Shown here piece by piece: positions 38,301 through 41,300 of a stretch of 64,000 nucleotides of DNA. Location of the stretch: the NCBI RefSeq assembly GCF_056712565.1, contig NZ_CM160072.1. One strand, 5' to 3'. The position numbers were made by a program. The first letter of the stretch is position 1. Each line of letters begins with the position of its first letter.

Positions 38301-41300
38301 GTCATTCAAAATCGGCATACCTTCCTTTAATGTATTTATTTTCCCAATAAATATATGAGATTTACCTCATAATTACTTCCTAAAGTGTAATATTTTATTT
38401 TTTAATATATACGCCTACAATTTCCTGGAGTAAATAAATAACAATTAACAAGCATAATATTGCCATTGATAAAATAGCATGCCATAAAAGGACTTTTCAG
38501 GGATGAGTAATATTGTTTATCTGACAGTAACGGGAGAACAACAAGGAAGCATCTCCGCAGGTTGTGGGACTACTGAATCTATAGGTAATCGCTGGCAGAG
38601 CGGTCATGAGGATGAAATATTTACATTCTCACTCTTAAATAGTATTACTAATACGGGGCTTGGTTCACAGTTCCATGGTATAACATTTTGTAAATTAATT
38701 GATAAAAGCACTCCATTATTTATTAATTCCATTAACAATAATGAACAATTATTTATGGAATTTGACTTCTATCGAATAAATAGATTTGGTAGATGGGAAA
38801 AGTATTATTATATACAACTAAGAGGCGCTTTTTTATCGGCTATTCATCACCAGATCTTTGAAAACCAACTGGATACAGAAACAATAACTGTTAGTTATGA
38901 ATTTATCCTCTGCCAACATCTTATCACTAACACCGAGTTCAGCTATTTGGCACTCCCTGAAAATTATAACCGCTTGTTTTTACCAAATTCAAAAAACAAA
39001 ACAAATAATGGTTTAAAAACGTTAAACAGCGAAGCTGTTGGCAGGCTACTTGCTGCTGGTGGCGTATACAATGGGAACATTGAAGGATTCAGAGATACTG
39101 CGGAAAAACTGGGTGGAGATGCAATCAAAGGCTATGATCAAATACTAAATGAAAAAACAGCGGGCATAGCGATAGCAACAGCATCTATTCTTTTAACAAA
39201 GCGTTCTAATGTTGATACATATACAGAAATAAATAGTTACTTAGGCAAACTTAGAGGCCAACAAAAACTTCTTGATAGTATAGACATAATAGAAATAATA
39301 TAAATTAAGAGACCTTCAAAAGACTTAGCTAACTTACGAAAGGAGTTTAATAAAAATGTAAGAAAAAATTTTCTTATCAAACTTGCAAAAACCTCCGAAG
39401 CATCTGGAAGATTCAACGCCGAAGACCTTTTAAGAATGAGAAAGGGCAATGTTCCTCTAAATTATAATGTACACCATAAACTATCTCTAGATGATGGTGG
39501 TACTAATGATTTGGAAAATTTAGTATTAATCGAAAACGAACCATATCATAAGGTTTTTACTAACATGCAATCACGAATAGCTAAGGGAATATTAGTGGGT
39601 GAAAGCAAAATCACTCCCTGGGCCATTCCATCTGGCTCAATTTATCCTCCCATGAAAAATATTATGGAACCCACAAAATGATGACTAAAACCCAAATAAA
39701 TAAATTAAAAAAAATGATGAATGATTTAGACTATCCATTTGAAGCACCGCTCAAGGAATCATTTATTGAAAGTATAATCCAAATAAAATTTAATTCTAAC
39801 TCAACTAATTGCCTGGAGAAGTTATGTAATGAAGTTAGTATTCTCTTTAATAATCAACCTGATTATCTTACTTTTTTAAGAGCAATGGATGGATTCGAAG
39901 TTAATGGATTACGATTATTTAGCCTCTCGATTCCAGAACCTTCAGTTAAAAACCTTTTTGCCGTAAATGAATTTTATAGAGATAATGATGATTTCATAAA
40001 TCCTGACTTACAAGAACGGTTAGTGATCGGGAATGATAGCATTTCAATATTTACTTATGACATTAAAAGTAACTTTTTTGAAATTAGAGATAATATTGGC
40101 ACAGAAAATATATTCAGTTCGTTTAGTGATTTCTCTTCATTCTTAAACGAAATCATGGACAGTTGTTCATAATAATAAAAAGGTAACCAAAATCATTGTA
40201 AACCATGCCATCTTTTTAGAGTTTACCAGCAGTAAATTTCTTGATCGAAATTTATCAATACAAGCTATAGAAAAACTTACAACGGAACTACACTCCTTAA
40301 GTGAGATGGACCGAAGACATGTAGTCGCTATTTAAACTGAAATAGCTAATGGCGATGATGATCTTAGTGACATGTTGATTTGGTTAGAATTTTACCCGAA
40401 TCATAAGATTCTGATATCTTAAATGAGCAAATCCGGTTCGACGTTCTGGAAAATAAATCACAAAATATTAGCAGATACTTATTTTGTGACTATACCTTAT
40501 CCGATGAACTCTTTTCAAAACCAGCATTTAATAATATCTTTGACGAAGATGAACGCGTCTTTGCTCAATGTATAACGCAGGAATAATAATATAACGCTAA
40601 ACAATAATATTTATTATAATTATGATTACTTATCACGACGCATTCGCGAAAGCGAACAATTACCTTGATGATGCAAATCTCCCGGTCGTCATTACTCTAC
40701 ATGGACGCTTTAGCCAGGGCTGGTATTTCTGTTTCGAAGCACGAGAATTTCTCGAAACTGGAGATGAGGCCGCGCGCTTAGCTGGTAACGCACCTTTTAT
40801 TGTTGATAAAGGCAGTGGTGAAATTCATTCTCTGGGAACGGCAAAGCCACTGGAAGAATATCTACAGGATTATGAAATAAAAAAGGCTACCTTCGGCTTG
40901 CCCTGACAATACGGCCCTCTTCCCACTAAGAGGGCCGCTAACCTTAATACCCCGCCGTTAAATCATCCACCGAGCGCGGGTCGGATGCACCGTACAGCTC
41001 ACCGTCCGGCCCAATCATAATGCTTTGTGTACTGCCCATCGCCTCTTTCAGCGCCACTTTCTGACCTTTTGCTTCCAGCAGCTTGATCGTATCCGGGCTA
41101 AACCCTTTTTCGACACGCAGCTCGTCCGGCAACCACTGATGGTGGAAACGCGGCGCATTGGTCGCTTCGGCGACGTTCATTCCATAATCGATGCTATTCA
41201 CCACCATTTGCAGCACAGTGGTGATAATCCGGCTACCGCCTGGGCTTCCGGTGACCAGCCAGGTTTTACCATCCTTGACCACAATGGTTGGTGACATCGA

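What the first reader, a model, noticed from the sequence alone, without database searches (positions are those of the whole stretch)
39678..40906. Orphan immunity-gene array after the Hcp-ET toxin: intact yrhA-like gene, degenerate remnants, yrhB
The 164-aa ORF overlaps the toxin stop by ATGA, the classic toxin-immunity coupling. It is followed by about 450 bp (40173-40621) of AT-rich sequence containing only short broken reading frames, then the 94-aa yrhB. K-12, as I recall it, has an IS1 in yrhA here, and no IS is present in this window. The 450-bp stretch may be decayed additional immunity genes.
Basis: inference. Interest (0 to 1): 0.4.

Follow-up and report, generated by a model that had tools for sequence, protein, structure and literature searches.

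The report
Stack of leftover toxin-immunity genes
Downstream of a broken E. coli type VI secretion toxin gene lie one intact antidote gene, two decayed antidote genes (one is K-12's annotated "yrhD") and a fourth intact one, an ordinary example of how bacteria keep old antidotes after swapping toxins.

Summary

The window is 100% identical over this locus to E. coli ATCC 11775, a strain carrying the same allele as UTI89, S88 and APEC O1.

- **Intact genes.** yrhA (39678-40172) overlaps the stop codon of yhhZ/Hcp-ET1 by ATGA. yrhB (40622-40906) is a clear Pfam Imm35 protein.
- **No IS1.** K-12 does carry an IS1 in yrhA; this window does not.
- **The 449-bp AT-rich gap is two dead genes.**
  - 40177-40422 is a full-length but start-less member of an ~80-aa four-helix family. 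It also has an in-frame stop here. K-12's 51-aa "YrhD" is its truncated tail.
  - 40422-40586 is the first 54 codons of an 85-aa family.
- **Both families look like immunity genes.** Elsewhere each sits directly after a specific toxin domain carried on different delivery scaffolds (Hcp, Rhs, other large proteins).
- **Citrobacter has intact versions** of these cassettes at the same yhhY-ggt site.

yrhA is therefore effectively an orphan too.

YrhA has a SUKH fold and corresponds to the published ETI1 immunity protein.

This is a known kind of system. The small new point is the re-reading of yrhD.

The parts
38503..39681 (+). yhhZ/tssD, the Hcp-ET1 toxin gene. It has an N-terminal Hcp domain, a conserved linker and a C-terminal HNH (His-Me finger) DNase domain. 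It is a pseudogene in this window.
   Evidence: NCBIfam TIGR03344 3.5e-35 and Pfam T6SS_HCP 1.2e-11; weak Pfam HNH, E 0.005. RefSeq note 'internal stop'. Translation shows one in-frame stop.
39301..39303 (+). Nonsense codon TAA, replacing TAC (Tyr267). It lies upstream of the HNH domain.
   Evidence: K-12, FORC_042, EC359 and the same-haplotype strain FDAARGOS_536 all have TAC. The exact 61-mer carrying TAA occurs in 126 of 3621 genomes, including UTI89, S88, APEC O1, IHE3034 and NU14. UTI89 is annotated the same way.
39678..40172 (+). yrhA, intact, 164 aa. It is a SUKH-fold immunity protein for the HNH domain and corresponds to ETI1.
40177..40422 (+). Pseudogene of an ~80-aa four-helix family (the 'YrhD family'), full length. 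The start-equivalent codon is AAA (40177-40179). The K-12 internal ATG is ATA here (40267-40269). There is an in-frame TAA at 40333-40335. The original stop is at 40420-40422.
   Evidence: tblastx gives 47% identity over 51 aa to the 78-aa gene directly after Hcp-ET366 in C. koseri. phmmer against 1.84 billion proteins finds colinear 79-83-aa relatives at E 5e-4 to 9e-4. See alignment A3 and the DNA alignment. A profile without E. coli members gives E 1.1e-16. pN/pS against K-12 is 1.15.
40422..40586 (+). Truncated pseudogene of an 85-aa family ('imm85'). Codons 1-54 only are present. The start-equivalent codon is AAT. The 3' third of the gene was lost by deletion.
   Evidence: tblastn with the C. 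youngae 85-aa protein gives 42% identity over 53 aa (E 3e-11); K-12 gives 47% (E 2e-13). The DNA alignment shows ATG aligned to AAT and loss of homology after codon ~54. Profile E 9e-10.
40587..40621 (+). Short AT-rich junction between the truncated imm85 remnant and the yrhB start. It is a deletion scar and contains the yrhB ribosome-binding region.
   Evidence: Homology to Citrobacter imm85 ends here. Homology to strain F070, which has only yrhB between yhhY and ggt, begins at ~40609.
40622..40906 (+). yrhB, intact, 94 aa. It is an Imm35-family protein with no cognate toxin in the window.
   Evidence: Pfam PF15567 Imm35, 5.6e-22, 78 bits against a cut-off of 27.5. It is 68% identical to the Imm35 gene that follows imm85 in C. 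freundii. Present in 4068 of 5426 E. coli genomes. pN/pS 0.37.

Best explanation
The slot between yhhY and ggt is a polymorphic-toxin locus of the Hcp-ET type, shared by Escherichia and Citrobacter. An Hcp tube protein with a conserved linker carries an exchangeable C-terminal toxin domain, and each toxin domain comes with its own small immunity gene immediately downstream.

When recombination in the conserved Hcp/linker region brings in a new toxin-immunity cassette, the previous toxin tip is lost. Its immunity gene is pushed downstream and kept, as long as neighbours still fire the old toxin, and then decays.

Read left to right, this window holds:
1. The current cassette, Hcp::HNH (Hcp-ET1) plus its SUKH-fold immunity gene yrhA. 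The toxin is now killed by a Tyr267 stop.
2. A dead immunity gene of the ~80-aa YrhD family, whose cognate toxin ('Tox_366') is absent.
3. The 5' two-thirds of a dead 85-aa immunity gene, whose cognate toxin ('Tox_417') is absent.
4. An intact Imm35 gene, yrhB.

**Shown:** the homologies, the gene-order relationships, the lesions and the population frequencies.

**Inferred:** that the two unnamed families neutralise their neighbouring toxins; the order of the displacement events; and that intact yrhA and yrhB persist because they protect against toxins fired by other strains.
For: **Locus identity and annotation.**

**YrhA.**
- SUKH fold.
- The same C-terminal ~215-aa toxin region, followed by YrhA, occurs behind Hcp in E. 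coli and C. youngae and behind DUF8093 in Leclercia and Pantoea.
- STEC O22:H8 strain 154 is reported to carry Hcp-ET1/ETI1 at 99% identity to the characterised pair, and it has tssD-yrhA at this very locus.

**YrhD family.**
- The C. koseri 78-aa gene starts 2 nt after Hcp-ET366.
- In two metagenomic contigs, 80-83-aa members overlap the 3' end of large proteins. The last 124 aa of those proteins are 63% identical to the Hcp-ET366 toxin tip.
- Other members lie in CdiA-associated orphan arrays next to Imm63/Imm70, ImmE5 or CdiI genes.

**imm85.**
- It starts 2 nt after Hcp-ET417 in C. freundii.
- It starts 2 nt after an Rhs C-terminal fragment in Budvicia that carries the same toxin tip.

**Module maps**.
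- C. freundii: Hcp::Tox417-imm85-Imm35-wH-ggt.
- C. koseri: two tandem modules.
- C. youngae: Hcp::HNH-YrhA-imm85-wH-ggt.
- The imm85-then-Imm35 order matches E. coli's remnant-then-yrhB order.

**Decay.**
- Start codons are lost in both E. coli haplotypes, with further haplotype-specific stops.
- The gap differs by 7.3% between haplotypes with no indels, and pN/pS is 1.15 for the yrhD frame. Intact genes give 0.15-0.51.

**No cognate toxins.** Neither Tox_366 nor Tox_417 is anywhere in the 64-kb window.

**Literature.** The displacement/orphan-immunity model is described in PMC6730261 and PMC3482391.
Against: - No experiment shows that the 78-83-aa or 85-aa families neutralise anything. Neither they nor their partner toxin domains match any Pfam family.
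- The primary Hcp-ET1/ETI1 paper could not be read. The equation YrhA = ETI1 therefore rests on a secondary description plus locus identity.
- No cognate toxin for yrhB was found in any fetched locus. Zhang et al. link Imm35 to Tox-PL1 and Ntox40, so its role here is the least certain.
- pN/pS values rest on few substitutions (3-15 per class).
- The order of historical events cannot be proved from extant arrays.
Confidence: 0.85

Rival explanations
1. The 449-bp gap is ordinary intergenic or regulatory DNA that also carries a genuine small-protein gene, yrhD (51 aa in K-12). It is not made of gene remnants.
For: RefSeq annotates a 51-aa YrhD with an intact ORF in roughly 3300 genomes of the K-12-type haplotype. 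yrhB needs a promoter and ribosome-binding site somewhere in this stretch.
Against: - The yrhD reading frame stays open and homologous for 30 codons upstream of the annotated ATG. That upstream part aligns with the most conserved motif of the family, AIFLEFT, which the 51-aa product would lack.
- The 51-aa product would miss helix 1 and most of helix 2 of a confidently modelled four-helix protein.
- pN/pS is 1.15.
- In this window the ATG is ATA and the frame has a stop.
- Promoter-like and terminator-like sites are no more frequent than in shuffled sequence, and no Rfam family matches.
Confidence: 0.08
2. The small genes downstream of the toxins are not immunity genes. They are adaptors or chaperones for loading or secreting Hcp-ET proteins, or transcription regulators.
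For: None of the unnamed families has been tested. One array member (wH83) gives faint matches to winged-helix families. The YrhD-family model gives only generic helical-repeat matches.
Against: - Each small gene tracks the C-terminal toxin tip, not the delivery domain. The same tip-plus-small-gene pair occurs on Hcp, on Rhs and on other large proteins. That is the signature of immunity.
- Adaptors track the secretion scaffold instead.
- Members also sit in CdiA orphan arrays among named Imm families.
- YrhA has the SUKH immunity fold.
Confidence: 0.05
3. The array did not form by serial displacement in an Escherichia ancestor. The whole AT-rich block (yhhZ-yrhA-remnants) arrived in one horizontal transfer, already carrying the dead genes, and landed next to a resident yrhB.
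For: - The block 38268-40621 is 32% G+C, against 43-46% for yrhB and 49% for the window.
- Strain F070 has yrhB alone between yhhY and ggt, and homology resumes only 13 bp before yrhB.
- Start-codon losses are shared by both E. coli haplotypes, so the lesions predate the split between these two haplotypes.
Against: - The imm85-then-Imm35 order is the same in C. freundii and C. koseri modules. This suggests yrhB and the imm85 remnant were once one unit.
- F070 can equally be a deletion derivative.
- This rival changes the history, not what the parts are.
Confidence: 0.3

Closest known systems
Hcp-ET1/ETI1 effector-immunity pair of E. coli (Ma et al. 2017, Virulence 8:1189; as summarised in PMC6099711, PMC6730261 and bioRxiv 10.1101/2024.03.05.583533)
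   Same: [quoted passage not shown] A strain reported to carry Hcp-ET1/ETI1 at 99% identity has tssD-yrhA between yhhY and ggt.
   Different: Here the toxin has a premature stop at codon 267 and only the immunity gene is intact. The primary paper was not available to check sequences directly.
Orphan immunity arrays of polymorphic toxin systems, as seen in Rhs, CdiA and T6SS auxiliary clusters (Zhang et al. 2012, PMC3482391; the Kirchberger et al. 2017 model as cited in PMC6730261)
   Same: A conserved delivery domain carries exchangeable toxin tips, each with a cognate immunity gene. Displaced immunity genes are stacked downstream, and some of them decay.
   Different: The carrier is an Hcp rather than Rhs, CdiA or VgrG, and the locus lies outside any T6SS cluster. 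Two of the stacked genes belong to families with no Pfam or NCBIfam model.
SUKH superfamily immunity proteins (SMI1/KNR4; for example B. subtilis YobK)
   Different: Sequence similarity is marginal. Pfam SUKH_6 is reached only at E 0.009, in 3 of 12 homologues, and below the gathering score. The model has a low-confidence segment at residues 85-112.
Pfam Imm35 (PF15567)
   Same: YrhB matches the whole model at 78 bits, against a cut-off of 27.5.
   Different: Zhang et al. associate Imm35 with Tox-PL1 papain-like peptidase and Ntox40 toxins. No such toxin is next to yrhB here, nor in the Citrobacter loci, where Imm35 follows imm85.

Membership tests
Hcp-ET1 (Hcp fused to an HNH DNase) | N-terminal Hcp/TssD domain | tested here: met
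   TIGR03344 3.5e-35; PF05638 1.2e-11.
Hcp-ET1 (Hcp fused to an HNH DNase) | C-terminal HNH / His-Me finger nuclease domain | tested here: inconclusive
   Pfam HNH scores 17.3 bits, E 0.005, below the 21.4-bit cut-off. The motif NVHHKL...N...N is visible in the sequence. YhhZ is classified as His-Me finger group 32 in PMC5714182.
Hcp-ET1 (Hcp fused to an HNH DNase) | Uninterrupted reading frame encoding both domains | tested here: not met
   In-frame TAA at 39301-39303. The gene is a pseudogene in this strain and in 126 of 3621 genomes.
ETI1 / YrhA family | Match to the curated YrhA-family model | tested here: met
   NF038335 at 124 bits against a cut-off of 55.
ETI1 / YrhA family | Encoded immediately downstream of, and co-varying with, the HNH toxin domain | tested here: met
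   ATGA overlap here. The same toxin tip plus YrhA occurs behind Hcp or behind DUF8093 in four genera.
ETI1 / YrhA family | Neutralises the Hcp-ET1 DNase | not testable with these tools
   Reported for ETI1 in secondary sources. The primary paper is not held.
SUKH superfamily | SUKH alpha+beta fold | tested here: met
SUKH superfamily | Significant match to a Pfam SUKH/SMI1_KNR4 model | tested here: inconclusive
   SUKH_6 at E 0.009 in 3 of 12 homologues. There is no hit for the window protein itself.
Imm35 (YrhB) | Match to PF15567 above the gathering score | tested here: met
   78.1 bits against 27.5; covers 85 of 85 model positions.
Imm35 (YrhB) | Adjacent cognate toxin (Tox-PL1 or Ntox40, per Zhang et al. 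2012) | tested here: not met
   No toxin lies next to yrhB in the window or in the Citrobacter loci. It is therefore an orphan here.
Orphan/decayed immunity genes of a polymorphic toxin locus (the 40177-40586 remnants) | Homologues elsewhere lie directly downstream of a toxin gene | tested here: met
   YrhD family: C. koseri and contigs L023 and L024. imm85: C. freundii and Budvicia.
Orphan/decayed immunity genes of a polymorphic toxin locus (the 40177-40586 remnants) | The small gene follows the toxin tip across unrelated delivery scaffolds | tested here: met
   The Tox_366 tip is 63% identical on Hcp and on two other large proteins. The Tox_417 tip is shared by Hcp and Rhs.
Orphan/decayed immunity genes of a polymorphic toxin locus (the 40177-40586 remnants) | Cognate toxin absent locally | tested here: met
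   tblastn finds no Tox_366 or Tox_417 in the 64-kb window. The rest of the genome was not searched.
Orphan/decayed immunity genes of a polymorphic toxin locus (the 40177-40586 remnants) | Protein neutralises the cognate toxin | not testable with these tools
   No experimental data were found for either family.
YrhD small protein (K-12 annotation) | Start codon and uninterrupted 51-codon ORF | tested here: not met
   ATA replaces ATG at 40267-40269, and there is a TAA at 40333-40335. RefSeq flags 'internal stop'.

The most novel reading that the evidence does not exclude
The two relics have survived, indel-free, in ~3800 E. coli genomes since before these two E. coli haplotypes diverged. One reading is that they still do something. 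They might act as a homology platform that lets incoming Hcp-ET cassettes recombine in, or as the 5' leader and promoter of yrhB. The K-12-type 51-aa YrhD fragment might be a translated, neo-functionalised piece of an immunity protein. A related idea is that YrhB (Imm35) has been domesticated for a housekeeping role, because it persists even where the rest of the island is gone.
Probability: 0.1. Interest if true: 0.5.

Novelty: new member of a known kind. Interest (0 to 1): 0.3.

Why it matters
It gives a concrete evolutionary reading of a stretch of the E. coli K-12 map that is still annotated as unknowns (yrhA, yrhD, yrhB).

- **yrhD.** It appears to be the tail of a dead immunity gene rather than a real small-protein gene.
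- **Candidate immunity families.** Two unnamed small-protein families, and a third winged-helix-like one, are flagged as candidates. Their partner toxin tips are identified, so each pair is directly testable.
- **A disarmed lineage.** The lineage that includes UTI89, S88 and APEC O1 has lost Hcp-ET1 by a nonsense mutation while keeping the antidote. This is relevant to strain competition in the gut.

None of this changes how such systems are understood. It is a tidy instance of the established displacement model.

Tried and rejected
- **Pfam and NCBIfam scans of the conceptual translations of the gap.** No hits.
- **Word-indexed protein search with a composite of both remnant frames.** It returned only E. 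coli assembly variants and fusions. It missed the Citrobacter homologues, which were later found through YrhA's neighbours.
- **The odd fusion protein P0004 / contig L010.** Its 5' 532 bp has no match in 5426 E. coli genomes, so it may be a chimera. I did not pursue it.
- **The primary Hcp-ET paper.** It is not held under its DOI or its PMC id.
- **Pfam on the partner toxin tips and on the wH83, 85-aa and 78-aa proteins.** Nothing significant.
- **Profile search of YrhA against PDB sequences.** Only chance antibody hits. The fold comparison was needed to place it.
- **Rfam and promoter/terminator scans of 38200-41000.** Nothing above chance.
- **A remnant of the Citrobacter 294-aa lipoprotein-like gene between yhhY and yhhZ.** None found.
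- **yrhB paralogues next to a toxin in E. coli genomes.** None found.
- **The genome-wide scan for this Hcp-ET scaffold.** It returned only 7 loci, in Citrobacter and one Escherichia genome, so it gave no cognate toxin for Imm35.
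Full report
**What is in the sequence**

Window 38300-41000 is 100% identical to E. coli ATCC 11775 (NZ_CP033092.2), and 3757 of 5426 complete E. coli genomes carry the whole locus.

The RefSeq record reads, in order: yhhY, tssD (= yhhZ, 'internal stop'), yrhA, a 'hypothetical protein, internal stop' (= yrhD), yrhB, then ggt on the other strand.

- **yrhA.** The 164-aa ORF at 39678-40172 starts with an ATG that overlaps the upstream TGA (AAAATGATGA).
- **The gap.** 40173-40621 is 449 bp at 31% G+C, against 49% for the window. It contains no ORF longer than 50 aa.
- **yrhB.** It lies at 40622-40906.
- **IS1.** K-12 MG1655 has an IS1A-family element inside yrhA, which is truncated to 138 aa, followed by yrhD and yrhB. 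The window has none.

Translating 38503-39681 gives one in-frame stop. The codon at 39301-39303 is TAA, where K-12, FORC_042, EC359 and the same-haplotype strain FDAARGOS_536 have TAC, Tyr267. The stop lies upstream of the HNH motif.

The exact 61-mer containing TAA occurs in 126 of 3621 genomes that have the site. These include UTI89, S88, APEC O1, IHE3034, NU14 and UM146. UTI89 is annotated identically: tssD internal stop, with yrhA and yrhB intact. This is therefore a lineage-fixed mutation, not an assembly error. In this lineage yrhA is effectively an orphan as well.

**yrhA**

- It matches NCBIfam NF038335, the YrhA family, at 3.3e-36, but no Pfam model.
- Sequence support for SUKH is marginal: SUKH_6 at E 0.009 in 3 of 12 homologues.
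- Homologues of 57-65% identity were found in four genera.
  - In C. youngae the locus is syntenic: yhhY, a 294-aa gene, Hcp-ET, YrhA, an 85-aa gene, an 83-aa gene, ggt.
  - In Leclercia and Pantoea, YrhA follows a 379-380-aa DUF8093 protein. Its C-terminal ~215 aa are the same toxin region as YhhZ's.
- The delivery domain is therefore swapped while the toxin tip and YrhA stay together. That is the hallmark of a cognate toxin-immunity pair.
- Literature: Hcp-ET1 (HNH DNase) and its immunity protein ETI1 were characterised by Ma et al. 2017, as summarised in PMC6099711, PMC6730261 and bioRxiv 10.1101/2024.03.05.583533.
- The bioRxiv strain O22:H8 154 is said to carry an orphan Hcp-ET1 with ETI1 downstream at 99% identity. 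It has tssD-yrhA between yhhY and ggt.
- I could not read the primary paper.

**The 449-bp gap is two dead genes**

*(a) Frame of 40177-40422, the 'YrhD family'.*

- tblastx matches the 78-aa gene that starts 2 nt after a 366-aa Hcp-ET in C. koseri: 47% identity over 51 aa, E 6e-10.
- It also matches an 82-aa gene in a CdiA-associated array in Leclercia, beside Imm63 and Imm70 genes.
- An exhaustive phmmer search of 1.84 billion representative proteins found colinear 79-83-aa relatives at library-wide E 5e-4 to 9e-4.
- The alignment shows the E. coli copy is full length, with the conserved N-terminal AIFLEFT motif.
- The codon aligned to the C. koseri GTG start is AAA here and CAA in K-12.
- K-12's annotated 51-aa YrhD starts at an internal ATG downstream of that motif.
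- In this window that ATG is ATA, and a TTA has become TAA at 40333-40335.
- The family models confidently as a four-helix protein (pLDDT 93.7), with only generic helical-repeat structural neighbours. The 51-aa product would lack helix 1 and most of helix 2.

*(b) Frame of 40422-40586, 'imm85'.*

- tblastn with the C. youngae 85-aa protein gives 42% identity over 53 aa here (E 3e-11) and 47% in K-12 (E 2e-13).
- The DNA alignment shows the Citrobacter ATG aligned to AAT in both E. coli haplotypes. Homology is lost after codon ~54, and about 35 bp later comes the yrhB start. K-12 has an additional in-frame stop.

*Significance and decay.*

- Profiles built without any E. coli sequence hit only these two segments among 2380 six-frame segments of the whole window: E 1.1e-16 and 9e-10, with the next best at 0.9.
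- Between the two E. coli haplotypes the gap differs at 33 of 449 positions with no indels.
- pN/pS is 1.15 in the yrhD frame. For comparison it is 0.15 for yhhY, 0.41 for yhhZ, 0.51 for yrhA and 0.37 for yrhB. The counts are small, but they fit neutral decay.

**Why these are immunity-type genes**

- **YrhD family.** In two metagenomic contigs, 80-83-aa members overlap the 3' end of large proteins. The last 124 aa of those proteins are 63% identical to the C. koseri Hcp-ET366 toxin tip. Another member lies in CdiA-CT/ImmE5/CdiI orphan arrays.
- **imm85.** In C. freundii it starts 2 nt after a 417-aa Hcp-ET. In Budvicia an 87-aa homologue starts 2 nt after an Rhs C-terminal fragment with the same toxin tip.

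In both cases the small gene follows the toxin tip across unrelated delivery scaffolds.

Neither toxin tip matches Pfam. By eye, Tox_417 has an HxHx7SxxD motif and Tox_366 an FDG...IDRK motif. These are leads, not tests.

**The locus as a whole**

A scan of one genome per species for this Hcp-ET scaffold returned seven loci, six in Citrobacter and one in an Escherichia genome. Mapping reference proteins onto them gave the following:

| Species | Gene order |
|---|---|
| C. freundii / sp. FP75 | yhhY, 294-aa gene, Hcp::Tox417, imm85, Imm35 (68% to YrhB), wH83, ggt |
| C. koseri | a 5'-truncated Hcp::Tox417, imm85, a frameshifted Imm35, wH, then a second module Hcp::Tox366, imm78, wH, ggt |
| C. 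youngae | Hcp::HNH, YrhA, imm85, wH, ggt |

- In Citrobacter sp. NCU1, and at another locus in one Escherichia genome, a fourth toxin type is followed directly by a wH83-like gene. That family too occupies a cognate position somewhere.
- E. coli's order is yrhA, dead YrhD-family gene, dead imm85, yrhB. This keeps the Citrobacter imm85-then-Imm35 order and fits the model in which new cassettes displace old toxin tips and leave their immunity genes behind (PMC6730261, PMC3482391).
- No Tox_366, Tox_417 or wH83 is present in the 64-kb window.
- Other E. coli fill the slot differently: only yrhB in F070, a DUF4225 protein in EDL933, and IS1-mediated deletions in strains 127 and PKF8.

**yrhB**

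- It is a full-length Imm35 match, 78 bits against a cut-off of 27.5.
- It is present in 4068 of 5426 genomes and appears to be under purifying selection.
- Zhang et al. associate Imm35 with Tox-PL1 and Ntox40 toxins. I found no cognate toxin next to any homologue, so its partner remains unknown.

**Rivals**

- **A purely regulatory gap with a genuine yrhD.** This is contradicted by the upstream homology, the missing helices, the neutral substitution pattern and the lesions in this strain. Promoter, terminator and Rfam scans were at chance level.
- **An adaptor or regulator role for the small genes.** This is contradicted by their tracking the toxin tip rather than the scaffold.
- **A single transfer of an already decayed block next to a resident yrhB.** This remains possible, given the G+C contrast and the F070 configuration. 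It changes only the history, not what the parts are.

**Verdict**

The finding is real and its interpretation is supported. It is a known kind of system. The modest new content is:

- the specific identification of yrhD and the adjacent fragment as relics of two unnamed immunity-type families, with named partner toxin tips;
- the observation that the toxin is disarmed in this lineage.

Noticed in passing
window 40944-42676 (minus strand), around 41302: ggt is frameshifted in the window by a 1-bp deletion relative to the RefSeq record of the same strain, where ggt is an intact 1734-nt gene. UTI89 also has it intact. This is either a real variant of the sequenced stock or an assembly error.
   Followed up: partly
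window 38146: A single C/A difference in yhhY relative to NZ_CP033092.2. Apart from the ggt deletion, it is the only other difference across 8.7 kb.
   Followed up: no
L010 1-532 (JGI metagenome contig, 1431 bp): An unrelated 5' coding sequence is fused exactly at the position after the yrhA stop to K-12-type yrhD-yrhB-ggt, giving a 227-aa chimeric ORF. The 5' part has no match in 5426 E. coli genomes. It could be an assembly chimera or a rare alternative cassette that uses the same junction.
   Followed up: partly
L005 5386-7030 (E. coli O157:H7 EDL933): In EDL933 the yhhY-ggt slot holds a 303-aa DUF4225 protein followed by about 730 bp with no annotated gene. There is no trace of yhhZ, yrhA, yrhD or yrhB.
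   Followed up: partly
L031 2358-3741 ('E. coli' SCPM-O-B-8794) and L032 6001-7403 (Citrobacter sp. NCU1): A fourth Hcp-ET toxin type (379-382 aa) is followed directly by an 89-91-aa winged-helix-like protein related to the wH83 genes that end the Citrobacter arrays. In the Escherichia genome the pair sits at a different locus, next to metE.
   Followed up: partly
L016 2746-3999 and L019 5190-6290: The two partner toxin tips have no Pfam match. By eye, Tox_417 carries an HxHx7SxxD (JAMM-like) motif and no cysteine. Tox_366 carries an FDG...IDRK motif reminiscent of PD-(D/E)xK nucleases.
   Followed up: no
L011 2671-3555; L016 1590-2474: Citrobacter has a conserved 294-aa gene with a signal-peptide-like N-terminus between yhhY and the Hcp-ET gene. 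E. coli lacks it, and no remnant was detected in window 38200-38560.
   Followed up: yes
window 39436-39681: Downstream of the premature stop, an ATG opens an 81-aa ORF in the original frame that still contains the HNH motif. Whether a stand-alone nuclease fragment is ever made, which could help explain retention of yrhA, was not examined beyond noting that the upstream sequence is not an obvious ribosome-binding site.
   Followed up: no
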